Shown here in pieces: positions 25,704 through 58,300 of a DNA stretch of 64,000 bases. The notes beneath the pieces were generated by a model. That model made no database searches and had not been told where the DNA came from. It worked only from the letters and a program-made list of their open reading frames with translations. The position numbers and the translations under genes are program-made. Origin of the DNA: Octopus vulgaris (Eukaryota); assembly GCA_951406725.2 (NCBI GenBank), contig OX597830.1:79794001-79858000 (forward strand). Reading direction: 5' to 3'. How positions within the stretch are numbered: position 1 is the stretch's first letter; each line of letters opens with the position of its first letter.

Positions 25704-26374
25704 TAGTTACATATTACATTCATGCTAGAAACAATGAAGTTTTAAAACGGTTTGAATAATTAAAAAGATTGCTTTGGTACAATGGCAGAACATCTGTCAT
25801 GATAACAGGAGATGAAGGTTTGCGTCCCATGAGCCACCGTCAATATTTTCTATCCACAAGGATTTTAAACCAATATTTAGAGGCTATTATTTATAGCTTT
25901 ATCTGCTTTGAGACCCACCCTTCCTAAAAAAGAATTATATTTTTGTTTATTCAAGACGTATTCCACTACAGTATGACATGATATGAGTAGTTTCATGGGA
26001 AAGCTCAGTATCAGCGCTTCGTTTTGATAGCCGTTTATAGTAAACTTATATAGTACCCCTACAAACAGGGTAAATGTATCTATTACTCCATTGATTGGAT
26101 AAATGGTGAACAACTTTAACCCTCTAGCATTCAGATTACTTATTTAATACTTATTTATTCATATTTCAGAAAGGTTTAAATTCAGGATATACAAGATCCA
26201 AATTTTGAATGAAGTGCAAAAGTTCGTATTACCATAACAAATTCTTCTGCAGGTTACAGAGAAATTTATAGAGAGTGAAAAAAGGCTTCTTCTAGAAGCA
26301 AACAACTCTATATTTGGTTTTTAAACAGAAATCTAGAAGTCCGTCTACGAGTGCTTGTGAATCAGCGATCGGGT

Positions 26375-33005: not shown

Positions 33006-33009
33006 TCAT

Positions 33010-34112: not shown

Positions 34113-34139
34113 GGCTCTCGAGTGCTACAGGTACCATGT

Positions 34140-35550: not shown

Positions 35551-36900
35551 AATGTCAACGTCTTCAGCTGAGAATATATCTTTAAGTGCAAGACGGATTT
35601 TACCAATTACTTTCAGGTTTTGGTTAGAGTTGTGAATTTGCGGGAGAGTGTCACGCTCATTCATACCAGTTTCTTTAATTTTCAGCCATTCTATCAGGAT
35701 TTCATTGCTTAGATCCTCCAGTTCAGTTGGGTCAATTTCTGTTTTACTTTCTTCATCTATTTGATTTTCATCTGCCTTGGTGTTTATGCTTGGTTCAGAG
35801 AGTATTTCACTTTGCTTATAAGTTACATTGACTCTTATTATCATTACCGCATTTTCATCAGACCTGGGTCAGTCTGTAATTATTTCCACAGTAGTATCTT
35901 CTTTACCTGCATCTTCGTTTCTTCTGACGTTGGCAAGGTTGTTACTATATAAGATCTTACTTCAAGATGCTCCTCTCTTCAGTTTAGGTAGGTTTGTTCA
36001 GTATTAGATTTATCTACCAACGACCATTTTTCATTCTTTTTCTTTTGGTTATTTGATGACGAGCTTGGATGGCCATTTGATGGAATATTCCGGTTGTGGG
36101 GCACTTCGAGCTCCTGCGTCATGGAAAGATTTGAACCAGTATCTGATTTTTCACACCCAGTCTGGTCCTCACTGGCGTGCGCGGCCCATGTTGGCTCTGG
36201 TGACGAACGATCCGGTGTGTATATTGCTTTGTTATCTTTGAGGCATGATGCGTTTGGACGTTAATATTAAGGTAGGATCTGTTTGTTTTGCGTTAACATT
36301 TTGAGACAACATGTTCTCTGAATGAAAGCATTGCTCGTAACATCGCTTTTAAAGGCAAACAGATCTGTATTCGTCTGTATGTTTTCGTTGTTGTTGACAG
36401 ATTTATCTCCGGGCATAGTTTCGTTGCAGTTATTTAAAACTTATGAATTATTCACTCTGTGTTAGTTCGAAGAAAATTGTATTGTTATAGTTTTGTTTCG
36501 TTTGCGACACGTGCTGTCATATACTTGTATGTGTGTCCTGTAAATTTCACGTAGTTGTGTAAACATTGGGTGTATGTGTAGTCCTATGGGTATTAATATA
36601 CGAATGCATAGACATTCGAGTGTATGCATAATTAAATCAATTTATGAATTTACTGTTTTCTTCCACTTATATTTTATAATTTGTAAAGTTTTCGACGTTG
36701 ATTTCGCACGTGTCTTTCGCACATCTTTCACTGAGACATCGTACATGGGAGAAACTGTTTTCCTATGGCAGTAAAATTTCGCTTTTTGTGATTATTTTCG
36801 TTATAATGCCGTTTCCTGCAAGTCTTCCGCGGGTTCCTTTTTCCTATTACACTGGTGTTATTAGATTAGATTTGTATTTGTATGGAGAGTCCGGTGTAAC
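35550..36900 (-). mobile_element. Probable 5' UTR and N-terminal region of another non-LTR element (possibly R4-like); mirror 56530-57890 (+)
   Basis: Decayed A-rich reading frame (KKKNEKWS...; NEILIEW.KIKETGMNERDTLPQI) cut at the RTE junction; clade assignment tentative. Confidence 0.45.
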
Positions 36901-36933
36901 ACGCCCATATTGTTATTCAGCGCGGAGCTGACA

Positions 36934-37118
36934 TCTTCTTCTTCTTCTTCTTCTTCTTCTTCTTCTTCTTCTTCTTCTTCTTCTTCTTCTTCTTCTTCTT
37001 CTTCTTCTTCTTCTTCTTCTTCTTCTTCTTCTTCTTCTTCTTCTTCTTCTTCTTCTTCTTCTTCTTCTTCTTCTTCTTCTTCTTCTTCTTCTTCTTCTTC
37101 TTCTTCTTCTTCTTCTTC
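36934..37118. repeat. Pure (CTT)n tract, ~60 units; mirror (GAA)n 56333-56504 is slightly shorter
   Basis: Direct reading. Confidence 0.97.
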
Positions 37119-37243
37119 CTAGTCAAGAGGAAGAGCGCGATGCGACTGCAGTCGATATTTTATTGGTTGAACGATATTTCGACAGATAGCTTGTCTTTGT
37201 CGAGTTCAGAATGAAAAGTGATAAAATTTCAAAATTATAGAAA

Positions 37244-38490
37244 CTAGCTGAACCACCGCCCTCCAGTCGGTCGATTCAGTTACTTACATATCTACACTCC
37301 TGTTTGTAGTTTGAAAGTAAAATGTGAAACCTACTATAATTTTCTTATAGAATTTCCTAATAGACAACTTTGTAAGTGTATATTCCATTCATACCCTTAT
37401 ACTTTGAGTCCAAAGCCAATATATGCTCATTGTTCCCAGAACCGATCGTGCTGTTGGCAACATAGCACTGGCCATGGATGAACATAGGTGTTGGCGGGTA
37501 AATTCCAACTGTTTCTTAAGTCTGACCTTGGGATTTGTCCTTTCAAAAGCCAGTTTCAGAGGAAACTGCTTCCTGGAAAATGAGAACGGATAGTCTTCAG
37601 TGGTGGTCAGTGGAATTCGTGGTATCATTATTCGGATTCCAGCATGTGTCCCATCGGCCACATCTGCTTCAATAAGGTGGTTGTGCAAATTCACGACCAT
37701 ATATCTTGTTCCGTTACAGTGACCTCCTGCTGGATCAAGGTTTCTGAGCAGCATAATTGAAGAGTGCTTCTTCAAAACCAAAATGTATGGTGGAAATCCT
37801 GATGAGTTGAGATCATTGATCAGTTCCGGCGGGAACTCAGTCTCGTTTTCGTATAAAGTATCACAGCTTTGATAAGTTCTACTATATCCTTGTAGAAGTT
37901 TTGACATGACAACTTTATTACTTTTTCAGCAGCCTTGTTTGTAGGAATAATGATGGCTCTGCTGCTTATCCATAGACCCTCTCTATATTTATCCTCAATA
38001 GCCCTGAAGACCACTTCACAAAGATCCTGTAGCTTTGTAGAGTCAATCAAATGCGGTGGGGCTATAGATATTTTGTATTCACAAATTTCTTTATTGAGAG
38101 AAAATGTTCTATTCCCCAGCTGGTCAAGATAGGGTGCGAAAGTAGTGTCAACACCGCAAGAATTTCGGACTCTCATATTGACAGACAACTGAAAGCTTTG
38201 GACATGGTTCCAAATGTATGACTGTTTTAATATGGCATGAACAATCTGGACTCTGTAACCTCTTTGCACCAAGCGCAAGATCTGCTTCCATTCTCCAGAA
38301 AACAAAACAGTCAGACCGCCAAACAGCTTATCTGGTTGTTGTCAAACTTCTCTAGGACTGCGATCAACACAATCATAGACATGCCTCTGGCCCATTGTAA
38401 CCTCGTCAATTACCTCTGGAATCACTTATTTTCATATGGCACATAAATTCTTCTGTAATTCGCAATGGAATACTGCATCTGGATTTGAAC
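37244..38490 (-). mobile_element. Helitron 3' fragment (PIF1-type helicase relic); mirror 54960-56207 (+)
   Basis: GEWKQIL, LSVNMRV, IMLLRNLDPAGGHCNGTR and IPRIPL...FSRKQFPLKLAF motifs; terminal accg...cggt hairpin followed by CTAG|T. Confidence 0.9.
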
Positions 38491-38970
38491 TCTAGCTTTA
38501 TCTAGTGTGATGCTGCTACTCTTAAGTAGATCCCATCTTTTCAAGGTTGCTTTGGCACATTTTTCTAAGCCAAATTTCATATTTATTTGTTTGGTAAATC
38601 CATGTACTGTCTGTAGTATTGATTCCAGGTGTTTATCATTTGTAGTCTACAGTTTTAGGTCATCCATACATAAGAGGCGGCTGATTGCTTTGCCGTAACA
38701 GTTGTATCCGCTTTCAGTTCTGTCAGATAAAGGTGTCAGTGTGAAACATATAAGGAGTGGAGAGAGCGTGTCTCCCTGGAATATTCCTCTTCTAATGGGG
38801 ATGGCTTTGGTTTTTATGAATCCCTCTTTTGTTTGGAGCTGTAGCAAGGTCTGCCATTTATTTATGGAATGTGTTATACATTTTATGATTATTAGTGCCA
38901 CCTTGTTCATGGCTAGTGTTTCTAGGATCCATGTGTGGAGAATGCTATCAAACACCTTTCGGTAGTACAA
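38490..38970 (-). mobile_element. R4/Dong-like non-LTR RT fragment; mirror 54482-54960 (+)
   Basis: YRKVFDSILHTWI, IRRGIFQGDTLSPLL, MDDLKL and MKFGLEKCAK motifs. Confidence 0.85.
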
Positions 38971-38979
38971 CCTGTTATA

Positions 38980-41088
38980 TGGTCGGGTTGTCGGCAACTA
39001 AACCGGTAACCCCACAATGGCTTGCTTGGTGAGGTGGGTATTTGGTGGATGCCCTGCGGGACAGAAAATAAGACATGTCAAAGGGCGGAGGAACTACAGC
39101 GTAGTCAACGGCCATTCAACAACGTATGTTTGTGGATGTGCGTGTGGAGTGTTTAAGTTTGTGTGTATGTATTGTAAATATTGCATTTAAAACCTGTGTG
39201 CCTATCTGTATATACTGTATATATTGTATTTCAAGCTGTTTGTGTGCATATTGTATATTGTGTTTTACATTGTATATATTGTATGTCAATTTTATTCTTA
39301 ATTTTATTTTTCTTATCTTAGTCTTTTTTTAAATAAATAGATGAGGGTTGGATAGGATTCCTCTGCTTACGCAAGTCGTGGCGAAGGTAGTCTATCTCGG
39401 AGAAAGTAACTCTGAATTTAAATACTTCACTGCTGTCTTGTAGTTAGCCTTTGGCTGAGCAAAGACTCGGAGAAGAACACTCGGATATAAAATATGCGAC
39501 TGCAAATGCACCCAATGATGTCGACTTATTATTCTTCTTGGATCATGCATTGTAGTTTAGAGAGTGGGAATGGTTGCTGTGCAACACTCTTCCTCGTTTT
39601 AAAATGTGTCAGGCACAGGTATTGCTGGAGAGGAAAAGGAAATGAACATCTTGTATGTACATGGTTGACCACCAAAACTTAAAAAGGCACAACTAAACAA
39701 TGAAAGTTCATATTGATACTGAAGCAAATGACAAAAAGGGCTCTGGAACATTTTGTTTTGTGGTTTGGCCCGGCAGGTGTCCCAGGGCACGACAACCTGG
39801 ATCTGGTCGTCATCTTGCAACTGTGAGTAAATTCAGGTTAAGATGCAAGCCTTTGAATATAGGATGTTGGAATGTTCGAATGTTAGACAATGATTGTCTG
39901 AAATCTCGTCCGGAGAGGAGATCCGCGCTTGTTGAAAAAGAGTTACAGCGACATGAATGTTGTAGAGTTAGCCGAAACAAAAATTCATGGAAAGTGGGAT
40001 TTGGTAGAGAAATCTGCTGTGTATCATTTATTTTGGAGCAGTAGAGAGGAGACCTATAAGACAGAATCAAGAGTGGGATTTACTATCAAAACCACTTTGG
40101 TTTCAAACCTTGAGGAACTACCATGTGATAATTCTGATCGTTTGATGTCTTCAACACCTCCATTAAGAAAAGGTCGCTATGCAACACTCATTACTGCATA
40201 TGCTTCAACTATATCTTATATAGATCCCTTCAGTGCAATCTTCAAAAGCTATTTGAAAGACTATTGCAAAATACATAGCAAACAATGCAGGAGCAGGAAT
40301 ATTACCTTGTTTTACACCATTTTATAGAGAAATTGGATCTGATAAGGTACCTCCAACATTAGCTCTCACTTCTGTCTTGTCATGAAATTGTCTAAGCATT
40401 CTTACAAATTTTTCAGGGCATCCTAGCTTTTTCAGGATCTCCCAAAGTACAATTCCATTGATAGAATCAAACGCTTTTGTTAGATCATTGAAAATCTGGT
40501 ATACGTCCATATCCTGTTCGATGTACTTCTCTTGCTAAAAATATCATATCCATAGTACTCCTTCTATCCCTAAACTCACATTGCGATTCTGGTAGAACCT
40601 CATCAGCAATGTGCAGAAACAATCTGTCCAGCATTACTCTACAAAGGGCCTTTCCAGCAACAGCTAACAGATACCGCGATAATTATCACAGACATCGTTT
40701 CCATAGTTGCTTCACGCCAATCCGGAGGAACCTCTTCACTATGCCAAACCCTCTGAATCACATCCGTCAACATTGTACAGTGATGATCACCACCATATTT
40801 ATATATCTCTGTACCTAGTCCATCCATGCCATGAGCATTTCTATAGTTCAATTTCCTGATAGCTGCTTTTATTTCAACCAGGTTTGGAACTTCTGCTATA
40901 AGATGTTTTATTGATCTCCCAGATATATTATCAAGAAAAGAGAGGTCAACTTTAGTAGGTCTATTGAGCAAATCGTCAAAATGTTCTTTCCATCTCCCAA
41001 CAATATCTTTAGGATTTGTTAATAATTCTGTACCATCCTCGCTCCGAAGCGGCGCAACCTTTGATGACACTGGTCCAGAAACTTTTTT

Positions 41089-41128
<40 letters not shown>

Positions 41129-42908
41129 GAGAGAGAGTGAGAGAGAGAGTAAAAAAGTTTGGAATTGTTAGCATTTGAAACTTCTTGGATTTCATTGCAT
41201 ATATCACTCCACCAATTTTCCTGCATCATCCTCAGCTTCGTCTGCACTGTTGCTTTTACTGCCTTGAAGTGTGTAGCCACTGTCCTGATTGCTGACAGGT
41301 CAATATTTTGCAACATGTTAAATGCCTTTTGCTTCTCCTCTAAGATAAAACTAACTTCTTCATCATTATAGTCAAACCAATCTCGGTGTCTTTTTTGCAA
41401 CAAACCCAAGAATGTTACTACAAATCTTGTACACTCTTTCTTTGAATGACTTCCAGCTTTCACCACAGGACAAATTCCATCACAACTCCCATCACAAACT
41501 CATTGCGTACTGATGGAGTCTTAAGTTTATTGACATCAATCCGATTAGGTAACATGTCATTATTTGCTCTAACCTTAGGCTTGAGAGCAAAATTCACCTT
41601 GGCACGCAAAAGCTTATGATCAATCAAGCACTCTGCACCACACATCAATCGTAGTATAGCAAAGCCCCTAGTACCTCGTTTCCTGGAGAGGATGTAATCT
41701 ACAAGGTACCATTTCTTAGAACCAGGGTGCATCCATGTTGTTTTACACTTACTCTTTCGTTGAAACATTGTGTTCATGATACACAAATCCATCTCTACGC
41801 ACATATATAACAGTAATAAACGATTATTGTTGGAACTCCCAACGCTATGCTTTCCTAAGACACCCCAGGTCTACAAATCTGCACCAACGCGTGCATTAAA
41901 ATCACCTAAAATGACAACTTTGTCATCATGAGTAACGCTGCGTATAATCACTGTTAAGTGATAGATAGAAGGCAAGTTTATCATCTATATAAGATATAGG
42001 ACAAGAGGAAAGCTGTTCAATCTCAAAAGACTCTGTGCCAAAAGGAAAGATGATTGTGACCTGTTGGAACATTCCCAGAAAGGTATGCAGCATATTGTGA
42101 ATGCGATTTCTGCAGCATGTGCAGCATTTGGTCTAACGATCAATCTAAAAAAAAAAACTGTTATGAAGTACCAGCCCACTCCCACAAAATGTATGTGGAA
42201 CCTTTTATAACTGTGAATAGTCAAAGGCTGGAGGCTGCACCTAGACTTATTTATGTAGGAAGTACCTTGAGCGCTGCTGGTCTTCATGATAACATTTCAT
42301 ACAGAATCAGCAGGGCTAGAAGTGCTTTTGGTAGACTAGATAGTCGTCTGTGGAAACAACATAATATAAATTAAAGTTAAGGTATATAACAGGTGCGACC
42401 TCCCATCTTTGTTATAGGGGAGTGAGGTGAGGCATGGGTTGTTTAATGTAGGCTTGTAAGTCATTGGAATGATACCATGAATACTGTCTGAGAAAAGGTT
42501 TGAGGATAAACTGGAAAAATGGCCATGAGTAATGTGGCGCTGCTCGAGAGGAGTGGCAGTAGAAGTACAGATTCAAAGATTTTGTAAAAAACTTTGAGGT
42601 TGGAGTCGGGAGACATTTGGTAAGGATGAGTGATGAGCGACTACCCAAGCAGCTATTGTGTGGTGAGCTGGAAGACGGCAGGAGACCAGCACATAAGCCT
42701 AAACTAAGATTTAAGGATTGCCTTAAGAATGCTCTAATACAGACAGGAATTACAGCTGGTGATTGAGAGAGGGAGGCACAAGACCGCGATGGATGGAAGA
42801 AGATAGTGCATGATGGTTGTTCAAGGTTCGAGGGGGAGAGAATGAAGTATGAGATAATTAGAAGGGAGTTTAGAAGGAGGGAACCAGTGGAAAGTGAGAG
42901 AGTGTTGC

Positions 42909-42953
<45 letters not shown>

Positions 42954-43260
42954 TTTGTGGGAAGAGGTGTTTGACTCGTGCAGGCCTGGTGAGCCATCAA
43001 AAATCTTACAGGAATCGACCCATGATAAACAGTGATGTGGCTATTAAAATTCACAACGGAACATGTGTAAAATGTGGAAGAGAGTGCCTCTCATCTGGAG
43101 GTCTGGAAAGACACGTTAAGAGAGTGAATATGGTGGCACCTGTTTCTGTTGCCAGCCAGCACAGTTGTGCAGTATGTAATAAAATGTGTAAAAGTTTGGT
43201 TGGGCTTAAAAGTCATATAAGCGCATCACATGGCATCAACAATGAATCATTTCAGTAAGT
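38980..43260 (+). mobile_element. Near full-length decayed RTE-clade LINE with an internal inversion (40209-41999); mirror 50180-54475 (-)
   Basis: 5' UTR and GCWNVR/RPERRSALV APE on +; GDFNARVG...WMHPGSKKW...RWKEHF...DLTKAFDS...GVKQG on -; IRYRTRGKLFNLKRL...YVGS...three C2H2 fingers on +. Confidence 0.9.
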
Positions 43261-43281
43261 CTTTTGGAAATGGCTTTTCTC

Positions 43282-43394
43282 GTGTAACGAGGGTGCAGCT
43301 ATGATGTATGTATGTATGTATGTATGTATGTATGTATGTATGTATGTATGTATGTATGTATGTATGTATGTATGTATGCATGTATGTATGCATG

Positions 43395-43453
<59 letters not shown>
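43282..43453. repeat. (TATG)n/(TA)n microsatellite; mirror 49983-50135 differs in composition
   Basis: Direct reading. Confidence 0.95.
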
Positions 43454-43456
<3 letters not shown>

Positions 43457-43479
43457 ATTGTAATATGTGACAATTATTT

Positions 43480-45400
43480 GCTAGCCGTGATAAAAATCCG
43501 AGTTTCGGATGTCGGGGTGGAAAGCCACGCCGCCATCTCTTCAGTTATCCGCCCATCAGAAGAAATGCTATGAAAATAACCGTTAAACAAAGGGAAATTA
43601 CTGTGTGATTGACCGTTATTAAGACAAAAGAGCTATTTGAATGACCGCTAAGTGAGGGGAGGGAGTAAAAGTAAGGGGGTAAAATGTTCATAGTATTCGC
43701 GTAAGCGCGTATGTCCATACCTACACATGCGCGTCCACACACCCACGCACATGCACCTATAAGTATACACTCATTCACCCTCACTTGAAACGTACACATT
43801 CTCACCCACACCATTCGCCATACACACATGCGCACCAACTAGGTTCGTACACACATCTATATACGCACATACCCGTATGCACGCACACACACACGCGTCT
43901 ATATACGCACATACTCGCATGCACGCACACACACACATCTATATATGCACATATCAACACACACGCACACATCTATACGCACGCACAAACGAATCCATAT
44001 ACACGTCTATATACGCACAAGTAAAATGCAGGGTGGAAGGTAGAATAAGGAAAAATTATGAGTAAAAAATATATGAGCAATAAACCTATAAAACTATCTC
44101 TATAGATATGTAAAAAATACGTATAAAAGATATATAAATATATATAAAAATATATAAGAAATATAAGTAAAAATTATAAAGAGATAAAAAGCTTGTACGT
44201 GAACACAATATAGAAAGCAAGTCCTATCTGTAATCTCGGCAGGACCAAAAACGTAACAAATATTGAGCCACGTATGGGCATGATCCGAAAAGTTCAATTC
44301 TTGAATTCAGACATGTAGCGGGGTCTAAGCTGCTTTTCCAGATGAGCCATCTTTCCATATCACAAAGACCACACTTTCCACTGCCGTTGGTGTAGGGTTT
44401 AAACTTGGCTAAGATCTTCTAATGGATGTTGTAACTGACACCTTTATCCTTTAATGACCATATATGACTGGATAATTTGGTTGTTTTCCTTTTATCCCAG
44501 TGCCTGAAGCTCAAGGTGTGATTATCGAACCTGGCCTTGAAACTACCCTCTGTAAGGCCTATGTATTTCTTCGTCGAAACCGTGTCCTTAGTGGATATAG
44601 ATTCTACGGTGGCTTCATAAATGATGGTCTCGGTCATGCAAGCTCCATTTAGCGGGCACAAATTTTTATCCCTGCATGAACAGCTGGTTTTGTATTGTGA
44701 TTTTTGTGGGTTGTGTGCGATTATATTTTTAAAATTGGTAGTTGAGCTGAAACTGATTTTTAAGTTATGTCTATTGAAGAGCTTTCTGTAAGTATGGTTG
44801 ACTGGAACATGTCTATCAGTGCTAAGAAATTCTTGCCTATATTGAAGCTCACCTCGGGTGAGTAGGGGTGTGTGAACCAGATAGTTTTCCTATTTCTATG
44901 TTTCCTCTTTATTATTGGACTGGTGGCAGGTGTTTAGGTTATTTCCTCGCCAAAACCACTATCTTTTATATCTTTTATCTTTTCAAACGCTATTAAAAAT
45001 GTCCCTATCGGAGGAGAGGCTAGAAAATCTTTTGCTAAAGTTTTTAACTAAATTTTTAAACAGTACGGGGGGATGGCAAGAATCCACATTAACATATCTA
45101 AGTCTATCGTTGGGCTTCCTATAAGGCTTATAAATGTTCTTATTTAGATCTAAGGATACACCTAGGGAAATTGACAACCGTCAGGTTGGTGTCTGTAGTG
45201 CTAAGTGTCTGTAGTCATGCTAAGTCTGTAGTCATGCTAAGTCATGCTAAGATAACGTCCTTCCTAAACCGATCCTGTGCTGGTCCTTTGGTATTAGCAG
45301 TTAAGGCGAGGGCATCATCTTTGTAAATGGCGAAGTATACGTCAGGAAAGATCTTGCCCAACGTATCGAGTAGGAATAGTCCAATAAGATAGCAAAGAGA
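43480..45400 (-). mobile_element. Penelope-like element (Neptune-type RT end and GIY-YIG endonuclease); mirror 48040-49960 (+)
   Basis: IYKDDAL, LGVSLDL..NIYKPYRKPND..RYVN..S.HPP, IWFTHPYS and CPLNGAC....IYEATV...YIGLTEGSFKARF.NH..SF motifs; degenerate hammerhead motif at the 3' end (43489-43549). Confidence 0.9.
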
Positions 45401-45474
45401 TACACCAATAATAAAAATAAAAATACATCGCATCAAAGTCTTGAACGATAGTAGACAAATCGCACATAGAACTG

Positions 45475-47970
45475 GATGCGGATATAAATGTTACGGCAAA
45501 ACGATCGGCCACCTTTTATATATGGATGACCTAAAACTATACGCTGCAAATGACAAACAGCTGGAAACACTATTAAAGACAGTTCATTGATTTACCAAAG
45601 AAATAGATATGAAATTTGGATTAGAAAATGCGTCAAAGTAACCATGAGAAGAGGAAAACTAGTTAAGAGTAGCAACATCACACTAGATAAAACCAATGAA
45701 ATAAAAGAATTAGACCAAAGCCAAACTTACAAATACTTAGAATCCATGAACTAGATAAGACACAACATACACAAATTGAAAGAGAAAATAAAAAAGAATA
45801 TTATAGATGAGTTAGATCAATACTAAAAACAGAGCTCAATGCTAAAAACAAGATAATAGGTATTAACACTTTAGCTGTCCCAGTTATAAGTTACAGCTAC
45901 AATATCCTTAACTGGACACGAAATGAACTGACCAAAATAGATAGGAAAACAAGAAAAATAATGACAGGATCTAGATGCATCACCCAAAATCTGACATAGA
46001 AAGACTATATATACAACGTATAGAAGGTGGTAGGGGCCTTATACAGCTGGAAAACTACTATAAAATAACCACCATAGGACTGCAAAAATATCTACTTCAG
46101 AAGGAAGGAAAACTGATACAAATAGCGGCAAAACACGAGCAAAACAAAAAACTGTTCTCAGTATTTAAGGAAGCTGACAAATACAAACAAGAAATCATAC
46201 CACCTAATAAATATGAAGAAGAAGAAGAAGAAGAAGAAGAAGAAGAAGAAGAAGAAGATGAAGAAACAACAAAAGCTATAAAACAAATGAAATCCAAACT
46301 AAAAATAGAACAGCAACGAACCATGATAAAACGAGCATGGCAAGAAAAGCCCCTTCATGGTAAATACTGGACTAAACTAAACGCAAAAGAAATAGACAAA
46401 GAAAAATCCCAGCAATGGTTGAGAAGCTCAGACTCAAAGCAGAGACAGAGGGATTTTTAATTGCAGCACAAGACCAAAGCCTCCCCACCAGAAATTACCA
46501 AAAGCATGTAATGAAAAGAAATATTTCAAGTAACTGCAGAATATGTGGAGATGGACAAGAAACAATAAATCATATTATCTCTAGCTGCCCAGTCCTGGCT
46601 AAGAAGGAATATATTCACAGACATGACAGAGTTGGAACCTACATACATTGGAAGCTATGCCAACATTATGGAATAACAACAGAAAAAAGATGGTGTGTGC
46701 CTATACCATCTTTTTTCTGTTGTTATTCCATAATGTTGGCATAGCTTCCAATGTATGTAGGTTCCAACTCTGTCATGTCTGTGAATATATTCCTTCTTAG
46801 CCAGGACTGGGCAGCTAGAGATAATATGATTTATTGTTTCTTGTCCATCTCCACATATTCTGCAGTTACTTGAAATATTTCTTTTCATTACATGTTTTTG
46901 GTAATTTCTGGTGGGGAGGCTTTGGTCTTGTGCTTGCAATTAAAAATCCCTCTGTTTCTGCTTTGAGTCCTGAGCTTCTCAAATCATTGCTGGGATTTTT
47001 CTTTGTCTATTTCTTTTGCGTTTAGTTTAGTCCAGTATTTACCATGAAGGGCTTTTCTTGCCATCGTTTTATCATGGTTCGTTGCTGTTCTATTTTTATT
47101 TTGGATTTCATTTGTTTTATAGCTTTTGTTGTTTCTTCATCTTCTTCTTCTTCTTCTTCTTCTTCTTCTTCTTCTTCTTCTTCTTCTTCTTCTTCTTCTT
47201 CTTCTTCTTCATATTTATTAGGTGGTATGATTTCCTGTTTGTATTTGTCAGCTTCCTTAAATACTGAGAACAGTTTTTTTCCTTAAATACTGAGAACAGT
47301 TTTTTTGCTCGTGTTTTGCCGCTATTTGTATCAGTCTTCCTTCCTTCTGAAGTAGATATTTTGCAGTCCTATGGTGGTTATTTTATAGTAGTTTTCCAGC
47401 TGTATAAGGCCCCTACCACCTTCTATACGTTGTATATATAGTCTTTCTATGTCAGATTTTGGTGATGCATCCTAGATCCTGTCATTATTTTTCTTGTTTT
47501 CCTATCTATTTTGGTCAGTTCATTTAGTGTCCAGTTAAGGATATTGTAGCTGTAACTTATAACTGGGACAGCTAAAGTGTTAATACCTATTATTTTGTTT
47601 TTAGCATTGAGCTCTGTTTTTAGTATTGATCTAACTCGTCTATAATATTCTTTTTTAGTTTCTCTTTCATTTGTGTGTGTTGTGTCTTATCTAGTTCATG
47701 GATTCCTAAGTATTTGTAAGTTTGGCTTTGGTCTAATTCTTTTATTTCATTGGTTTTATCTAGTGTGATGTTGCTACTCTTAACTAGTTTTCCTCTTCTC
47801 ATGGTTACTTTGGCGCATTTTTCTAATCCAAATTTCATATCTATTTCTTTGGTAAATCCATGAACTGTCTTTAATAGTGTTTCCAGCTGTTTGTCATTTG
47901 CAGCGTATAGTTTTAGGTCATCCATATATAAAAGGTGGCCGATCGTTTTGCCGTAACATTTATATCCGCA
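45475..47970. mobile_element. R4/Dong-clade non-LTR element truncated at, and mirrored around, the palindrome apex (+ 45475-46694; - 46705-47970)
   Basis: YMDDLKLYA, YKYLG, HHPKSDIERLYI.RIEGGRGL, ETEGFLIAAQDQ, CRICG...ETINHIISSC (CCHC) and RHDRV...WYRHTP motifs; the endonuclease domain is missing. Confidence 0.9.
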
Positions 47971-50488
47971 TGTTCTATGTGCGATTTGTATACTATCGTT
48001 TAAGACTTTGATGCGATGTAATTTTATTTTTATTATTGGTGTATCTCTTTGCTATCTTATTGGACTATTCCTGCTCGATACGTTGGGCAAGATCTTTCCT
48101 GACGTATACTTCGCCATTTACAAAGATGATGCCCTCGCCTTAACTGCTAATACCAAAGGACCAGCACAGGATCGGTTTAGGAAGGACGTTATCTTAGCAT
48201 GACTTAGCATGACTACAGACTTAGCATGACTACAGACACTTAGCATGACTACAGACACCAGTCTGTCAATTTCCTAGGTGTATCCTTAGATCTAAATAAG
48301 AACATTTATAAGCCTTATAGGAAGCCCAACGATAGACTTAGATATGTTAATGTGGATTCTTGCCATCCGCCCCGTACTGTTTAAAAATTTAGTTAAAAAC
48401 TTTAGCAAAAGATTTTCTAGCCTCTCCTCCGATAGGGACATTTTTAATAGCGTTTGAAAAGATAAAAGATATAAAAGATAGTGGTTTTGGCGAGGAAATA
48501 ACCTAAACACCTGCCACCAGTCCAATAATAAAGAGGAAACATAGAAATAGGAAAACTATCTGGTTCACACACCCCTACTCACCCGAGGTGAGCTTCAATA
48601 TAGGCAAGAATTTCTTAGCACTGATAGACATGTTCCAGTCAACCATACTTACAGAAAGCTCTTCAATAGACATAACTTAAAAATCAGTTTCAGCTCAACT
48701 ACCAATTTTAAAAATATAATCGCACACAACCCACAAAAATCACAATACAAAACCAGCTGTTCATGCAGGGATAAAAATTTGTGCCCGCTAAATGGAGCTT
48801 GCATGACCGAGACCATCATTTATGAAGCCACCGTAGAATCTATATACACTAAGGACACGGTTTCGACGAAGAAATACATAGGCCTTACAGAGGGTAGTTT
48901 CAAGGCCAGGTTCGATAATCACACCTTGAGCTTCAGGCACTGGGATAAAAGGAAAACGACCAAATTATCCAGTCATATATGGTCATTAAAGAATAAAGGT
49001 GTCAGTTACAACATCCATTAGAAGATCTTAGCCAAGTTTAAACCCTACACCAACGGCAGTGGAAAGTGTGGTCTTTGTGATATGGAAAGATGGCTCATCT
49101 GGAAAAGCAGCTTAGACCCCGCTACATGTCTGAATTCAAGAATTGAACTTTTCGGATCATGCCCATACGTGGCTCAATATTTGTTACGTTTTTGGTCCTG
49201 CCGAGATTACAGATAGAACTTGCTTTCTATATTGTGTTCACGTACAAGCTTTTTATCTCTTTATAATTTTTACTAATATTTCTTATATATTTTTATATAT
49301 ATTTATAGATCTTTTATACGTATTTTTTACATATCTATAGAGATAGTTTTATAGGTTTATTGCTCATATATATTTTACTCATAATTTTTCCTTATTCTAC
49401 CTTCCACTCTGCATTTTACCTGTGCGTATATAGACGTGTATATGGAATCGTTTGTGCGTGCGTATAGATGTGTGCGTGTGTGTTGATATGTGCATATATA
49501 GATGTGTGTGTGTGCGTGCATGCGAGTATGTGCGTATATAGACGCGTGTGTGTGCGTGCATACGGGTGTGTGCGTATATAGATGTGTGTACGAACCTAGT
49601 TGGTGCGCATGTGTGTATGGCGAATGGTGTGGGTGAGAATGTGTACGTTTCAAGTGAGGGTGAATGAGTGTATACTTATAGGTGCATGTGCGTGGGTGTG
49701 CGGACGCGCATGTGTAGGTACGGACATGCGCGCTTACGCGAATACTATGAACATTTTATCCCCTTACTTTTACTCCCTCCCCTCACTTAGCGGTCATTCA
49801 AATAGCTCTTTTGTCTTAATAACGGTCAATCACACAGTAATTTCCCTTTGTTTAACGGTCATTTTCATAGCATTTCTTCTGATGGGCGGATAACTGAAGA
49901 GATGGCGGCGTGGCTTTCCACCCCGACATCCGAAACTCGGATTTTTATCACGGCTAGCAAATAATTGTCACATATTACAATTACATATATATATATAGAC
50001 ACATACATGCATACATGCATACATACATGCATACATACATACATACATGCATACATACATGCATACATACATACATACATACATACATACATACATACAT
50101 ACATACATACATACATACATACATACATACATACATCATAGCTGCACCCTCGTTACACGAGAAAAGCCATTTCCAAAAAGACTTACTGAAATGACTCATT
50201 GTTGATGCCATGTGATGCGCTTATATGACTGTTAAGCCCAACCAAACTTTTACACATTTTATTACATACTGCACAACTGTGCTGGCTGGCAGCAGAAACA
50301 GGTGCCACCATATTCACTCTCTTAACGTGTCTTTCCAGACCTCCAGATGAGAGGCACTCTCTTCCACATTTTACACATGTTCCGTTGTGAATTTTAATAG
50401 CCACATCACTGTTTATCATGGGTCGATTCCTGTAAGATTTTTGATGGCTCACCAGGCCTGCACGAGTCAAACACCTCTTCCCAACAAC

Positions 50489-50549
<61 letters not shown>

Positions 50550-52333
50550 CAACACTCTCTCACTTTCCACTGGTTCCCTCCTTCTAAACTCCCTTCTAAT
50601 TATCTCATACTTCATTCTCTCCCCCTCGAACCTTGAACAACTATCATGCACTATCTTCTTCCATCCATCGCGGTCTTGTGTCTCCCTCTCTCAATCACCA
50701 GCTGTAATTCCTGTCTGTATTAGAGCATTCTTAAGGCAATCCTTAAATCTTAGTTTAGGCTTATGTGTTGGTCTCCTGCCGTCTTCCAGCTCACCACACA
50801 ATAGCTTCTTGGGTAGTCGCTCATCACTCATCCTTACCAAATGTCTCCCGACTCCAACCTCAAAGTTTTTTACAAAATCTTTGAATCTGTACTTCTACTG
50901 CCACTCCTCTCAAGCAGCGCCACATTACTCATGGCCATTTTTCCAGTTTATCCTCAAACCTTTTCTCAGACAGTATTCATGGTATCATTCCAATGACTTA
51001 CAAGCCTACATTAAACAACCCATGCCTCACCTCACTCCCCTATAACAAAGATGGGAGGTCGCACCTGTTATATACCTTAACTTTAATTTATATTATGTTG
51101 TTTCCACAGACGACTATCTAGTCTACCAAAAGCACTACTAGCCCTGCTGATTCTGTATGAAATGTTATCATGAAGACCAGCAGCGCTCAAGGTACTTCCT
51201 AAATAAATAAGTCTAGGTGCAGCCTCCAACCTTTGACTATTCACAGTTATAAAAGGTTCCACATACATTTTGTGGGAGTGGGCTGGTACTTCATAACAGT
51301 TTTTTTTTAGATTGATCGTTAGACCAAATGCTGCACATGCTGCAGAAATCGCATTCACAATATGCTGCATACCTTTCTGGGAATGTTCCAACAGGTCACA
51401 ATCATCTTTCCTTTTGGCACAGAGTCTTTTGAGATTGAACAGCTTTCCTCTTGTCCTATATCTTATATAGATGATAAGCTTGCCTTCTATCTATCACTTA
51501 ACAGTGATTATACGCAGCGTTACTCATGATGACAAAGTTGTCATTTTAGGTGATTTTAATGCACGCGTTGGTGCAGATTTGTAGACCTGGGGTGTCTTAG
51601 GAAAGCATAGCGTTGGGAGTTCCAACAATAATTGTTTATTACTGTTATATATGTGCGTAGAGATGGATTTGTGTATCATGAATACAATGTTTCAACGAAA
51701 GAGTAAGTGTAAAACAACATGGATGCACCCTGGTTCTAAGAAATGGTACCTTGTAGATTACATCCTCTCCAGGAAACGAGATACTAGGGGCTTTGCTATA
51801 CTACGATTGATGTGTGGTGCAGAGTGCTTGATTGATCATAAGCTTTTGCGTGCCAAGGTGAATTTTGCTCTCAAGCCTAAGGTTAGAGCAAATAATGACA
51901 TGTTACCTAATCGGATTGATGTCAATAAACTTAAGACTCCATCAGTACGCAATAAGTTTGTGATGGGAGTTGTGATGGAATTTGTCCTGTGGTGGAAGCT
52001 GGAAGTCATTCAAAGAAAGAGTGTACAAGATTTGTAGTAACATTCTTGGGTTTGTTGCAAAAAAGACACCGAGATTGGTTTGACTATAATGATGAAGAAG
52101 TTAGTTTTATCTTAGAGGAGAAGCAAAAGGCATTTAACATGTTGCAAAATATTGACCTGTCAGCAATCAGGACAGTGGCTACACACTTCAAGGCAGTAAA
52201 AGCAACAGTGCAGACGAAGCTGAGGATGATGCAGGAAAATTGGTGGAGTGATATATGCAAGGAAATCCAAGAAGTTTCAAATGCTAACAATTCCAAACTT
52301 TTTTACTCTCTCTCTCACTCTCTCTCTCCTTTC

Positions 52334-52364
<31 letters not shown>

Positions 52365-55300
52365 CGAAAAAAGTTTCTGAACCAGTGTCATCAAAGGTTG
52401 CGCCGCTTCGGAGCGAGGATGGTACAGAATTATTAACAAATCCTAAAGATATTGTTGGGAGATGGAAAGAACATTTTGACGATTTGCTCAATAGACCTAC
52501 TAAAGTTGACCTCTCTTTCTTGATAATATATCTGGGAGATCAATAAAACATCTTATAGCAGAAGTTCCAAACCTGGTTGAAATAAAAGCAGCTATCAGGA
52601 AATTGAACTATAGAAATGCTCATGGCATGGATGGACTAGGTACAGAGATATATAAATATGGTGGTGATCATCACTGTACAATGTTGACGGATGTGATTCA
52701 GACGGTTTGGCATAGTGAAGAGGTTCCTCCGGATTGGCGTGAAGCAACTATGGAAACGATGTCTGTGATAATTATCGCGGTATCTGTTAGCTGTTGCTGG
52801 AAAGGTCCTTTGTAGAGTAATGCTCGACAGATTGTTTCTGCACATTGCTGATGAGGTTCTACCAGAATCGCAATGTGAGTTTAGGGATAGAAGGAGTACT
52901 ATGGATATGATATTTTTAGCAAGAGAAGTACATCGAACAGGGTATGGACGTATACCAGACTTTCAATGATCTAACAAAAGCGTTTGATTCTATCAATGGA
53001 ATTGTACTTTGGGAGATCCTGAAAAGCTATGATGCCCTGAAAAATTTGTAAGAATGCTTAGACAATTTCATGACAAGACAGAAGTGAGAGCTAATGTTGG
53101 AGGTACCTTATCAGATCCAATTTCTCTATAAAATGGTGTAAAACAAGGTAATATTCCTGCTCCTGCATTGTTTGCTATGTATTTTGCAATAGTCTTTCAA
53201 ATAGCTTTTGAAGATTGCACTGAAGGGATCTATATAAGATATAGTTGAAGCATATGCAGTAATGAGTGTTGCATAGCGACCTTTTCTTAATGGAGGTGTT
53301 GAAGACATCAAACGATCTGAATTATCACATGGTAGTTCCTCAAGGTTTGAAACCAAAGTGGTTTTGATAGTAAATCCCACTCTTGATTCTGTCTTATAGG
53401 TCTCCTCTCTACTGCTCCAAAATAAATGATACACAGCAGATTTCTCTACCAAATCCCACTTTCCATGAATTTTTGTTTCGGCTAACTCTACAACATTCAT
53501 GTCGCTGTAACTCTTTTTCAACAAGCGCGGATCTCCTCTCCGGACGAGATTTCAGACAATCATTGTCTAACATTCGAACATTCCAACATCCTATATTCAA
53601 AGGCTTGCATCTTAACCTGAATTTACTCACAGTTGCAAGATGACGACCAGATCCAGGTTGTCGTGCCCTGGGACACCTGCCGGGCCAAACCACAAAACAA
53701 AATGTTCCAGAGCCCTTTTTGTCATTTGCTTCAGTATCAATATGAACTTTCATTGTTTAGTTGTGCCTTTTTAAGTTTTGGTGGTCAACCATGTACATAC
53801 AAGATGTTCATTTCCTTTTCCTCTCCAGCAATACCTGTGCCTGACACATTTTAAAACGAGGAAGAGTGTTGCACAGCAACTATTCCCACTCTCTAAACTA
53901 CAATGCATGATCCAACAAGAATAATAAGTCGACATCATTGGGTGCATTTGCAGTCGCATATTTTATATCCGAGTGTTCTTCTCCGAGTCTTTGCTCAGCC
54001 AAAGGCTAACTACAAGACAGCAGTGAAGTATTTAGATTCAGAGTTACTTTCTCCGAGATAGACTACCTTCGCCACGACTTGCGTAAGCAGAGGAATCCTA
54101 TCCAACCCTCATCTATTTATTTATAAAAGACTAAGATAAGAAAAATAAAATTAAGAATAAAATTGACATACAATATATACAATGTAAAACACAATATACA
54201 ATATGCACACAAACAGCTTGAAATACAATATATACAGTACATACAGATAGGCACACAGGTTTTAAATGCAATATTTACAATACATACACACAAACTTAAA
54301 CACTCCACACGCACATCCACAAACATACGTTGTTGAATGGCCGTTGACTACGCTGTAGTTCCTCCGCCCTTTGACATGTCTTATTTTCTGTCCCGCAGGG
54401 CATCCACCGAATACCCACCTCACCAAGCAAGCCATTGTGGGGTTACCGGTTTAGTCGCCGACAACCCGACCATATAACAGGTTGTACTACCGAAAGGTGT
54501 TTGATAGCATTCTCCACACATGGATCCTAGAAACACTAGCCATGAACGAGGTGGCACTAATAATCATAAAATGTATAACACATTCCATAAATAAATGGCA
54601 GACCTTGCTACAGCTCCAAACAAAAGAGGGATTCATAAAAACCAAAGCCATCCCCATTAGAAGAGGAATATTCCAGGGAGACACGCTCTCTCCACTCCTT
54701 ATATGTTTCACACTGACACCTTTATCTGACAGAACTGAAAGCGGATACGACTGTTACGGCAAAGCAATCAGCCGCCTCTTATGTATGGATGACCTAAAAC
54801 TGTAGACTACAAATGATAAACACCTGGAATTATTACTACAGACAGTACATGGATTTACCAAACAAATAAATATGAAATTTGGCTTAGAAAAATGTGCCAA
54901 AGCAACCTTGAAAAGATGGGATCTACTTAAGAGTAGCAGCATCACACTAGATAAAGCTAGAGTTCAAATCCAGATGCAGTATTCCATTGCGAATTACAGA
55001 AGAATTTATGTGCCATATGAAAATAAGTGATTCCAGAGGTAATTGACGAGGTTACAATGGGCCAGAGGCATGTCTATGATTGTGTTGATCGCAGTCCTAG
55101 AGAAGTTTGACAACAACCAGATAAGCTGTTTGGCGGTCTGACTGTTTTGTTTTCTGGAGAATGGAAGCAGATCTTGCGCTTGGTGCAAAGAGGTTACAGA
55201 GTCCAGATTGTTCATGCCATATTAAAACAGTCATACATTTGGAACCATGTCCAAAGCTTTCAGTTGTCTGTCAATATGAGAGTCCGAAATTCTTGCGGTG

Positions 55301-58300
55301 TTGACACTACTTTCGCACCCTATCTTGACCAGCTGGGGAATAGAACATTTTCTCTCAATAAAGAAATTTGTGAATACAAAAAATCTATAGCCCCACCGCA
55401 TTTGATTGACTCTACAAGGCTACAGGATCTTTGTGAAGTGGTCTTCAGGGCTATTGAGAATAAATATAGAGAGGGTCTATGGATAAGCAGCAGAGCCATC
55501 ATTATTCCTACAAACAAGGCTGCTGAAAAAGTAATAAAGTTGTCATGTCAAAACTTCTACAAGGATATAGTAGAACTTATCAAAGCTGTGATACTTTATA
55601 CGAAAACGAGACTGAGTTCCCGCCGGAACTGATCAATGATCTCAACTCATCAGGATTTCCACCATACATTTTGGTTTTGAAGAAGCACTCTTCAATTATG
55701 CTGCTCAGAAACCTTGATCCAGCAGGAGGTCACTGTAACGGAACAAGATATATGGTCGTGAATTTGCACAACCACCTTATTGAAGCAGATGTGGCCGATG
55801 GGACACATGCTGGAATCCGAATAATGATACCACGAATTCCACTGACCACCACTGAAGACTATCCGTTCTCATTTTCCAGGAAGCAGTTTCCTCTGAAACT
55901 GGCTTTGAAAGGACAAATCCCAAGGTCAGACTTAAGAAACAGTTGGAATTTACCCGCCAACACCTATGTTCATCCATGGCCAGTGCTATGTTGCCAACAG
56001 CACGATCGGTTCTGGGAACAATGAGCATATATTGGCTTTGGACTCAAAGTATAAGGGTATGAATGGAATATACACTGACAAAGTTGTCTTTTAGGAAATT
56101 CTATAAGAAAATTATAGTAGGTTTCACATTTTACTTTCAAACTACAAACAGGAGTGTAGATATGTAAGTAACTAAATCGACCGACTGGAGGGCGGTGGTT
56201 CAGCTAGTTTCTATAATTTTGAGATTTTATCACTTTTCATTCTGAACTCGACAAAGACAAGCTATCTGTCGAAATATCGTTCAACCAATAAAATATCGAC
56301 TGCAGTCGCATCGCGCTCTTCCTCTTGACTAGGAAGAAGAAGAAGAAGAAGAAGAAGAAGAAGAAGAAGAAGAAGAAGAAGAAGAAGAAGAAGAAGAAGA
56401 AGAAGAAGAAGAAGAAGAAGAAGAAGAAGAAGAAGAAGAAGAAGAAGAAGAAGAAGAAGAAGAAGAAGAAGAAGAAGAAGAAGAAGAAGAAGAAGAAGAA
56501 GAAGATGTCAGCTCCGCGCTGAATAACAATATGGGCGTGTTACACCGGACTCTCCATACAAATACAAATCTAATCTAATAACACCAGTGTAATAGGAAAA
56601 AGGAACCCGCGGAAGACTTGCAGGAAACGGCATTATAGCGAAAATAATCACAAAAAGCGAAATTTTACTGCCATAGGAAAACAGTTTCTCCCATGTACGA
56701 TGTCTGAGTGAAAGATGTGCGAAAGACACGTGCGAAATCAACGTCGAAAACTTTACAAATTATAAAATATAAGTGGAAGAAAACAGTAAATTCATAAATT
56801 GATTTAATTATGCATACACTCGAATGTCTATGCATTCGTATATTAATACCCATAGGACTACACATACACCCAATGTTTACACAACTACGTGAAATTTACA
56901 GGACACACATACAAGTATATGACAGCACGTGTCGCAAACGAAACAAAACTATAAGAATACAATTTTCTTCGAACTAACACAGAGTGAATAATTCATAGGT
57001 TTTAAATAACTGCAACGAGACTATACCCGGAGATAAATCTGTCAACAACAACGAAAACATACAGACGAATACAGATCTGTTTGCCTTTAAAAGCGATGTT
57101 ACGAGCAATGCTTTCATTCAGAGAACATGTTGTCTGAAAATGTTAACGCAAAACAAACAGATCCTACCTTAATATTAACGTCCAAACGCATCATGCCTCA
57201 AAGATAACAAAGCAATATACACACCGGATCGTTCGTCACCAGAGCCAACATGGGCAGCGCACGCCAGTGAGGGACCAGACTGGGTGTGAAAAATCAGATA
57301 CTGGTTCAAATCTTTCCATGACGCAGGAGCTCGAAGTGCCCCACAACCGGAATATTCCATCAAATGGCTATCCAAGCTCGTCATCAAATAACCAAAAGAA
57401 AAAGAATGAAAAATGGTCGTTGGTAGATAAATCTAATACTGAACAAACCTACCTAAACTGAAGAGAGGAGCATCTTGAAGTAAGATCTTATATAGTAACA
57501 ACCTTGCCAACGTCAGAAGAAACGAAGATGCAGGTAAAGAAGATACTACTGTGGAAATAATTACAGACTGACCCAGGTCTGATGAAACTGCGGTTATGAT
57601 AACAAGAGTCAATGTAACTTATAAGCAAAGTGAAATACTCTCTGAACCAAGCATAAACACCAAGGCAGATGAAAATCAAATAGATGAAGAAAGTAAAACA
57701 GAAATTGACCCAACTGAACTGGAGGATCTAAGCAATGAAATCCTGATAGAATGGCTGAAAATTAAAGAAACTGGTATGAATGAGCGAGACACTCTCCCGC
57801 AAATTCACAACTCTAACCAAAACCTGAAAGTAATTGGTAAAATCCGTCTTGCACTTAAAGATATATTCTCAGCTGAAGATGTTGACATTACACGGGCATT
57901 GAAGTCCCCGAGTATCAGCAGCTTGCTATTCTTTAGGAACTGACCGTAGCACTTTGGTGAGGTTCTGATAGAACAATTCTCTCTGCTCCAGAGTGTAGGT
58001 CGCAGTTGGAGCTTAAGCACTGATGAGTGTCAGTGCATCTTGCCTTGGAGAGGAGTTCTCATCACCATCAGGCGATCGCTGATTCCTCTTGAGAGGGATT
58101 CCATGTTCTTGACGAGGGCGGTGCGAATAGAAAAGCCAACTCTTACTTCCCTGCGTTCATCCGCTGCCTTCCTTGACCAAAAGAAAGTGTATCTAGCCCC
58201 AGCCTCGGTGATCTCCCCCGTGACGGCGAAGCGTGTCTCGCTGAGGGCAGCAACATCAATGCTGTATCTCTGCAGTTCACAACCCACAAGTGCTGTTCGA

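What the first reader, a model, noticed from the sequence alone, without database searches (positions are those of the whole stretch)
46681..46718. Apex preserves a fold-back priming signature inside an R4 retrotransposon
Seen: on the minus strand the element reads straight through the spacer as KRWYRHTP (AGA TGG TAT AGG CAC ACA CCA), which resembles the WYxHxP motif of R4-type ORFs. The spacer is therefore probably native sequence containing TGGT-10 nt-ACCA. Inference: a broken 3' end ending ...ACCA snapped back on TGGT and primed synthesis of the whole second arm. This is the short-inverted-repeat fold-back mechanism known from breakage-fusion-bridge amplification, apparently fixed in a genome here.
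Basis: partly seen in the sequence, partly recalled or inferred. Interest (0 to 1): 0.8.

Follow-up and report, generated by a model that had tools for sequence, protein, structure and literature searches.

The report
Giant octopus palindrome folded inside retrotransposon
In an octopus genome assembly, at least 17 kb of DNA is mirrored around a 10-base loop that cuts a retrotransposon at its own 4-base inverted repeat, likely the scar of a DNA end folding back on itself: a known mechanism, rarely seen intact in a germline, and here not yet confirmed in reads.

Summary
The apex (spacer 46695-46704) centres a palindrome whose arms run at least 17.3 kb, to the window end. Intact family members read WYRHTP-EKV, and contigs from two public runs show the native DNA continues CCA-GAA. 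The spacer and ACCA are therefore native, and the microhomology is exactly 4 bp (about 1.4% by chance).

The arms differ by 0.86%, with a transition- and CpG-rich, evenly spread pattern. This fits one old duplication better than read errors or two recombining alleles. The palindrome flanks an MDH1B gene, and an O. vulgaris record separate from the window's carries gene models that need the same duplicated block.

Fold-back priming (after a break, or by ODIRA-type fork template switch) is the best reading, about 0.55. The same junction would arise by microhomology end-joining or central deletion (0.15), or from a chimeric long read (0.25).

'Breakage-fusion-bridge' and 'fixed' are not shown. 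No listed read or contig spans the exact junction, the two raw runs were nearly empty, and error-like indels crowd the last 1.2 kb.

Known kind of event, unusual example: human X palindrome spacers start at 77 bp.

The parts
46695..46704 (.). 10-nt spacer (fold-back loop); native LINE sequence on the minus strand
46691..46708 (-). native 4-bp inverted repeat TGGT-10 nt-ACCA (codons W-Y-R-H-T-P); the element ends after the Pro codon
   Evidence: loose ends before 46691
29447..46694 (+). left arm, part that can be compared with the right arm inside the window
   Evidence: 136 substitutions in 15,772 clean columns
46705..64000 (-). right arm, open at the window end
45465..46694 (+). 5'-truncated RLE-type LINE (R4/Dong-like), left copy: RT YMDD to CCHC knuckle, with frameshifts and 2 stops
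46691..47970 (-). right copy of the same LINE fragment, same 5' truncation, reads through the spacer
26052..29446 (+). probable outer part of the left arm (start of the 1.5-kb tandem array plus 360 bp); arm membership inferred from its mirror at the window start
1..3061 (-). mirror of 26052-32059, inferred to be the end of a preceding inverted arm, so the ~64-kb unit is probably repeated
13996..25003 (-). complete MDH1B gene (exons near 25003-24887, 21188-20088, 19067-18906, 16934-16749, 14217-13996) just outside the arm
10552..11652 (+). inverted exon-2-only copy of MDH1B
37389..38341 (-). PIF1-helicase fragment in the left arm (mirror 55111-56024); its link to exon 2 in O. vulgaris gene models marks the duplicated block

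Best explanation
A 5'-truncated LINE of the restriction-like-endonuclease type ends directly after its own 4-bp inverted repeat (TGGT-10 nt-ACCA) and is mirrored into a palindrome with arms of at least 17 kb, likely because a single-stranded 3' end folded back on that repeat and primed copying of the arm in an ancestral octopus germline. Shown: the native spacer, the 4-bp overlap, the loss of everything downstream including the endonuclease, and two arms with the same LINE 5' junction (one insertion, copied once). Inferred: the 3' end came from a resected break inside the element or from a leading-to-lagging template switch at a fork (ODIRA). The hairpin-capped molecule was then replicated into a palindromic dimer and fixed by recombination into the MDH1B region, where a ~64-kb unit appears to repeat. 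The arms then diverged by 0.86%, roughly 1 million years at an octopus rate I recall (about 0.0036 per site per My; not from a call), and longer if conversion acts.
For: Native continuation and exact 4-bp overlap, 1.4% by chance; no extra or adapter-like bases at the join. Arm differences look biological: 88 transitions vs 48 transversions, CpG transition rate 2.1% vs 0.46%, plus 16-24-bp indels. Their spread is Poisson-like (dispersion 0.98, 0.50, 1.02 at 0.5, 1, 2 kb); simulated allele pairs reach such evenness in at most 2.1% of runs at all three window sizes for rho/theta 0.1-1. A record labelled O. vulgaris, not the one holding the window's own product P0089, carries 3 full MDH1B models and 3 models splicing the arm's PIF1 fragment to an exon-2 read-through copy, interleaved by accession number. 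That is the block the right arm would form with the exon-2-only copy. One X1 contig (depth 135, 24 nt on the short side) joins 46694 to 46741, i.e. sense to antisense LINE near this apex (weak). Precedent: stems of 4 bp suffice in yeast (PMC7467729); human germline inverted duplications show 2-8 bp inverted microhomology (PMC3907307).
Against: No listed read or contig spans the exact junction. Raw runs X21 and X22 gave only 2 and 31 reads, with depth 0 at 46661-46676, and 13,556 contig pieces were not shown, so the test was weak rather than negative. 14 indel events crowd the LINE part (1,057 clean columns, 12 substitutions) against 18 indels and 124 substitutions outside (Fisher p=1.2e-5). 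Ten are 1-bp, mostly in short runs, as in uncorrected long-read consensus. The right-arm base T47099 is absent from all X3 depth and from 14 of 14 X22 reads. Right-arm-specific PIF1 changes are not in the O. vulgaris models. The allele model is not rejected at all window sizes for rho/theta 0.03 or lower, or 3 or higher. Such tight palindromes are unstable; a survey of human inverted CNVs found none unambiguously intact (PMC10766186). The junction letters cannot separate fold-back from end-joining.
Confidence: 0.55

Rival explanations
1. The junction is an assembly artefact. A fold-back chimeric long read (library end-repair or amplification, primed at the same 4 bp) let the assembler join two real but separate sequences, either two paralogous blocks or two haplotypes, into a false palindrome.
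For: No junction-spanning read seen; T47099 absent from X3 and X22. Error-like 1-bp indels concentrated in the 1.2 kb next to the apex. Fold-back artefact reads occur across nanopore library types and can tangle assemblies (PMC12870357). Arm divergence near 1% is of the order of octopus heterozygosity (recalled).
Against: Arms are not copies of one molecule (transition/CpG spectrum). Even spread disfavours recombining alleles for rho/theta 0.1-1. The duplicated block appears in a separate O. vulgaris record. The indel excess starts at the LINE's 5' end (45473), so failed polishing in a very high-copy family (11,874 contig pieces in X1) explains it as well. One X1 contig shows a sense-antisense join here.
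Confidence: 0.25
2. The junction is real but secondary. An older palindrome with a longer centre, or two broken sister chromatids, were joined by microhomology-mediated end-joining at TGGT, deleting the LINE 3' end asymmetrically and leaving 10 native bases as spacer.
For: Gives exactly the same letters (sequence logic: left-arm TGGT joined to the reverse complement of ACCA). Palindrome centres are where rearrangements concentrate (PMC8327919; PMC10766186). The region has an older inverted duplication. The X1 joint 46694-46741 could be an allele with a further central deletion.
Against: Stabilising deletions normally enlarge the asymmetry (PMC10766186: from 40-80 bp to kilobases); a 10-nt spacer would gain little. 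A 10-nt loop with a 4-bp stem is in the short-loop hairpin class of yeast foldbacks (under 15 nt).
Confidence: 0.15
3. Recombination between two independent, oppositely oriented LINE copies produced the inversion junction.
For: The family is very abundant; repeat-mediated junctions occur in 3 of 21 human cases (PMC3907307).
Against: Both copies share the same 5' truncation point and the same flank, so they are one insertion duplicated. Crossing over between homologous sites would give a continuous hybrid element, not a tail-to-tail stop.
Confidence: 0.02

Closest known systems
Short-loop ssDNA hairpin foldback inversions in yeast sae2/mre11 mutants (PMC7467729; passages read)
   Same: Stem as short as 4 bp, loop under 15 nt, 3' end extended by synthesis; short stems are used only next to the break.
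   Different: Those are selected laboratory rearrangements, normally suppressed by Sae2-MRX; this one sits in an animal assembly with arms 0.86% diverged.
Human germline inverted duplications by fold-back (PMC3907307; passages read)
   Same: Single-copy spacer bounded by 2-8 bp inverted microhomology.
   Different: Spacers there are 766-70,466 bp and usually go with terminal deletion; here 10 nt, with no telomere repeats in the window.
ODIRA inverted triplications (PMC10766186; passages read)
   Same: Palindromic junction at a closely spaced short inverted repeat; interstitial amplification next to a gene.
   Different: Only one tight apex is seen; the far junction (3061 vs 26052) is not palindromic; the authors found no intact human example; a replication origin was not tested.
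LINE-1-induced foldbacks and 3'-truncated insertions from incomplete second-strand synthesis (bioRxiv 10.1101/2024.12.14.628481; passages and section 11 read)
   Same: Retrotransposon fragment at a rearrangement junction, kept by its 5' junction and lacking its 3' end.
   Different: Shown for L1 (APE type) in somatic and cancer cells; the L1 foldbacks described keep the polyadenylated end or lack an insert. Here an RLE-type element loses its 3' end, and coupling to insertion is unproven.
Large palindromes of the primate X chromosome (PMC8327919; passages read)
   Same: Arms over 8 kb, about 99% identity, inherited.
   Different: Spacers 77 bp to 358 kb and arms held below 0.2% divergence by conversion; here 10 nt and 0.86%, with MDH1B outside the young arms. 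Sex linkage not tested.

Membership tests
RLE-type non-LTR retrotransposon (R2/R4/NeSL group) | Reverse transcriptase with Y/F-x-D-D related to R2 | tested here: met
   YMDD in both arms; relative P0097 matches R2 proteins in PDB at E 6.6e-29; RVT_1 in P0003
RLE-type non-LTR retrotransposon (R2/R4/NeSL group) | C-terminal CCHC knuckle CX2-3CX7-8HX4C (spacing from PMC5678591) | tested here: met
   CRICGDGQETINHIISSC in the window and in P0097; Pfam zf-RVT
RLE-type non-LTR retrotransposon (R2/R4/NeSL group) | Restriction-like endonuclease (PD..D, KX2KY) after the knuckle | tested here: met
   Present in intact relatives P0097 and P0003; absent from the window copy because the apex cuts before it
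R4/Dong clade specifically | Placement with named R4, Dong or Rex6 elements in an RT tree | not testable with these tools
   Homologs carried no names; atlas names were generic. The label R4 is recalled, not tested
R4/Dong clade specifically | No N-terminal zinc fingers, unlike R2 (recalled criterion) | tested here: met
   No C-x2-C in the first 450 aa of the 1,175-aa relative P0003; the window copy lacks this region
Fold-back inversion (hairpin-primed) | Single-copy native spacer between inverted arms | tested here: met
Fold-back inversion (hairpin-primed) | Pre-existing short inverted repeat at the spacer borders | tested here: met
   4 bp, native next base differs; 1.4% by chance
Fold-back inversion (hairpin-primed) | Junction present in the organism's DNA, not only in the assembly | tested here: inconclusive
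   No listed read or contig spans it; raw runs nearly empty; one contig with a nearby sense-antisense join
Breakage-fusion-bridge amplicon | Terminal loss or telomere healing and stepwise copy-number gains | not testable with these tools
   No whole genome held; no TTAGGG doublets in the window; contig depths are not copy numbers
ODIRA inverted triplication | Second palindromic junction at a short inverted repeat | tested here: inconclusive
   Far junction 3061/26052 is not palindromic, but a 5-bp inverted repeat with 9-nt loop ends 1 nt before it; it may have been rearranged later
Long-read fold-back artefact | Both arms are copies of one molecule, differing only by read errors | tested here: not met
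   Transition- and CpG-biased substitutions and multi-base indels. This does not exclude a chimeric read joining two real copies

The most novel reading that the evidence does not exclude
The fold-back happened during or soon after the insertion of this very LINE copy (for example at a stalled second strand). It seeded a palindromic MDH1B amplicon that is now shared by octopuses of the vulgaris group and has kept an unrearranged 10-nt apex for about a million years. Support: of 14 inactivating changes only 1 is shared by both arms (p=0.027 if the time before duplication equalled the time after), and in the 440 bp tested no shared base departs from the family majority. Against: many of those indels may be consensus errors, up to 4 shared missense changes are unexplained, and strand polarity is the same for any break.
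Probability: 0.15. Interest if true: 0.7.

Novelty: new member of a known kind. Interest (0 to 1): 0.4.

Why it matters
If the junction is real, it is a natural, inherited example of a short-loop fold-back that has survived long enough for its arms to diverge. Yeast normally destroys such structures (Sae2-MRX), and they were not found intact in a survey of human inverted CNVs. The intact family sequence supplies the 'before' state to the base, which is rarely available. It would allow tests of palindrome stability, arm conversion and retrotransposon-triggered rearrangement in a germline, and points to an MDH1B amplification in Octopus that my one search (octopus + MDH1B) did not find in print. 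If it is false, it flags a mis-join that inflates copy number at this locus.

Tried and rejected
Whole-genome search for intact copies: no genome is held.

Junction in raw reads: X21 and X22 laid only 2 and 31 reads although contigs show a very large family, so they say nothing about presence, absence or depth. I laid 4 of the 24 listed runs on 470 bases. Runs with small word shares were not used as evidence.

Junction-bearing proteins: 0 of 4 exact window translations were in the collection, and the near-length search had 1 candidate, a native relative. Both are uninformative.

Hairpin stability as a sign of a special site: rejected (z -0.41; 52 of 1,182 ends qualify). Pure sequencing error as the source of the arm differences: rejected.

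My first dispersion test used only the 1-kb window, the most favourable one. Repeated at 0.5, 1 and 2 kb it is weaker, and I report the weaker result. Those simulations kept only the 541-1,492 of 1,500 runs whose mean divergence was near the observed value, and tandem repeats and gap-adjacent columns were masked before counting (15,772 columns kept).

Strand polarity as evidence for insertion-coupled origin: rejected, since any break gives it. Recombination between two LINE copies: rejected.

Earlier scan notes: nothing found. Paper searches for octopus or cephalopod palindromes and MDH1B listed no description of this locus; the rate search returned nothing on octopus. Supplements were not read.

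Full report
Observation. The plus strand at 46681-46718 is two 14-bp arms around a 10-nt spacer (46695-46704). The arms pair without mismatch for 190 bp and align as one inverted block from 29447 to the window end at 64000, at 97.85% identity (pieces). On the minus strand the frame runs through the spacer as ...HYGITTEKRWYRHTP, then into antisense junk.

Is the spacer native? A search with the last 83 codons found 13 relatives among 17 candidates. Eleven were aligned with the query: W, Y, H and P are conserved in at least 90% of the 12 rows, and the closest continue EKVTENEKATILWD into an RPD..D / KX2KY endonuclease. P0097 has the exact WYRHTPEKV. At DNA level, contigs of runs X1 and X3 laid on 46661-47130 have loose ends before 46691 (38 and 13 contigs) that read E-K-V-T-E-N on the minus strand, and no variant row falls in the spacer. 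The native element thus carries TGGT-10 nt-ACCA, and the next native base differs from the window, so the overlap is exactly 4 bp. Four or more bases arise in 1.4% of random sense/antisense joins in this element, yet 52 of 1,182 possible 3' ends could snap back as well, and the hairpin is marginal (-1.2 kcal/mol).

The element. It starts near 45465 inside the RT domain (YMDD), has the CCHC knuckle with the spacing given in PMC5678591 (passages), and stops before the endonuclease. P0097 matches R2 proteins in the PDB (E 6.6e-29). It is an RLE-type LINE. The narrower label R4/Dong is recalled and could not be tested with a tree; the full-length relative P0003 lacks N-terminal C-x2-C motifs, which fits. 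Both arms share the same 5' truncation and flank: one insertion, duplicated.

Host and surroundings. The long exon at 10552-11652 and 21188-20088 is 99-100% identical to MDH1B proteins labelled Octopus vulgaris and O. sinensis, so the host is an octopus of that group. A complete MDH1B lies on the minus strand at 25003-13996. The copy at 10552 is exon 2 alone, inverted; the other four exons occur once. Positions 1-3061 mirror 26052-32059, which includes a 1.5-kb tandem array whose units differ by about 2%, and 1-1897 also match 62133-64000 directly. I infer a repeated unit of about 64 kb: exon-2-only copy, full gene, left arm from about 26052, apex, right arm.

Are the arms real? After masking tandem repeats and gap-adjacent columns there are 136 substitutions in 15,772 columns (0.86%): 88 transitions, 48 transversions, and a CpG transition rate of 2.1% against 0.46% elsewhere, plus indels of 16-24 bp. 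These are not read errors from one molecule. The spread is Poisson-like (dispersion 0.98, 0.50, 1.02 at 0.5, 1, 2 kb). Simulated allele pairs are this even in at most 2.1% of kept runs at all three sizes for rho/theta 0.1-1; the model is not rejected at all sizes for 0.03 or lower, or for 3 or higher. A record labelled O. vulgaris, different from the one holding the window's own product P0089, carries three full MDH1B models (P0015, P0094, P0095) and three models that splice the arm's PIF1 fragment to a read-through exon 2 (P0014, P0019, P0090), with interleaved accession numbers. That is what a gene finder would build from right arm plus exon-2-only copy. It indicates the duplicated block exists elsewhere, but it is protein-level and does not show the apex.

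Is the junction real? This is not settled. In one search the raw runs X21 and X22 laid only 2 and 31 reads, with zero depth in the first bin, although contigs show a huge family (11,874 and 1,660 pieces). No listed piece spans the apex, but a junction contig would be about 56 bp (my estimate from 31-mers), shorter than those shown, and 13,556 were hidden. One X1 contig (depth 135) joins 46694 to 46741 with 24 nt on the short side and an unknown middle. That is a sense-to-antisense join near the apex but not the window's exact junction, and the tool warns about sides under 30. Against: T47099 of the right arm is absent from all X3 depth and from 14 of 14 X22 reads. The LINE part has 14 indel events and 12 substitutions, against 18 and 124 outside (p=1.2e-5), mostly 1-bp changes in short runs. 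This looks like poor consensus, which a thinly supported chimeric join would give, but so would failed polishing in a high-copy repeat, and the excess begins at the element's 5' end. Fold-back artefact reads are documented across nanopore library types (PMC12870357, passages). I put about 0.7 on a real junction.

Mechanism. If real, three routes give the same letters: fold-back of a resected 3' end (PMC3907307, PMC7467729; passages); template switch at a fork on a closely spaced inverted repeat (ODIRA; PMC10766186, passages); and end-joining at TGGT between sisters or across the centre of an older palindrome. The first two are both priming on the 4-bp stem, and I take them together as the best explanation (0.55). 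A 4-bp stem with a loop under 15 nt matches the yeast short-loop class, used only next to a break. End-joining (0.15) is less likely because stabilising deletions usually leave large spacers. Nothing here requires BFB: there are no TTAGGG doublets in the window and no copy-number data. 'Fixed' is untested.

Timing. Against P0097 the arms share 6 missense changes and one frameshift in an A run. Eleven frameshifting indels and 2 stops are arm-private; 1 shared of 14 has p=0.027 under equal times. In the 440 bp covered no shared base departs from the family majority. This hints that the fold-back followed the insertion closely, recalling rearrangements from incomplete second-strand synthesis described for L1 (bioRxiv 10.1101/2024.12.14.628481, passages and section 11). 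But the indels may be errors and up to four shared missense changes are unexplained, so this stays the novel case (0.15). At a recalled octopus rate the arms are about 1 million years old.

Novelty and score. Fold-back inversions are well known. What is unusual is an apparently inherited example with a 10-nt spacer and diverged arms. Human X palindrome spacers start at 77 bp, and small spacers are the most rearranged (PMC8327919, passages); a human CNV survey found no intact palindromic arms. Searches listed no paper on this locus (listings only; no supplements read); earlier scan notes held nothing. Verdict: new member of a known kind, observation confirmed, mechanism plausible but not unique, junction unverified. 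Interest 0.4.

Noticed in passing
window 10552-11652 vs 20088-21188: The exon-2-only MDH1B copy differs from the full gene's exon at 2 of 1,101 bases, while flanks at 9228-9846 and 11656-12266 differ by 6-11%. This suggests conversion between arms of an older inverted duplication, or selection.
   Followed up: partly
window 13996-25003; proteins P0014-P0016, P0019, P0089-P0096: MDH1B appears amplified in the vulgaris group: 6 models on one O. vulgaris record, against two isoforms in one cluster for O. bimaculoides. Not found in print by one search.
   Followed up: partly
window 3042-3061 vs 26052-26071: The far end of the inverted arm stops 1 nt after a 5-bp inverted repeat with a 9-nt loop and is followed by a SINE-like sequence (label recalled); possibly a rearranged second junction.
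   Followed up: partly
window 26373-32059, 1-2683, 61380-64000: Tandem array of a ~1.5-kb unit in both orientations; units about 2% apart, but mirror partners across the apex 0.8-1.0% apart.
   Followed up: partly
window 23206-23810: AT-rich self-palindrome of about 610 bp, 90.6%, inside the first MDH1B intron.
   Followed up: no
window 38497-38964 (-) and 54488-54955 (+): A second, older fragment of the same LINE family (73% to P0097) inside the arms.
   Followed up: no
window 37389-38341 (-), 55111-56024 (+): PIF1 helicase fragment (Pfam PF05970, PF21530), probably Helitron-derived (recalled); O. vulgaris gene models fuse it to MDH1B exon 2, likely annotation artefacts.
   Followed up: partly
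window 47253-47306: Right arm alone has a 22-bp insertion that forms a 26-bp tandem duplication, a slippage-type change rather than a typical read error.
   Followed up: no
runs X21, X22 on window 46661-47130: Raw runs with the same species label as X1 laid only 2 and 31 reads on a family that gives thousands of contig pieces in X1 and X3; cause unknown (filter, or a different lineage).
   Followed up: no
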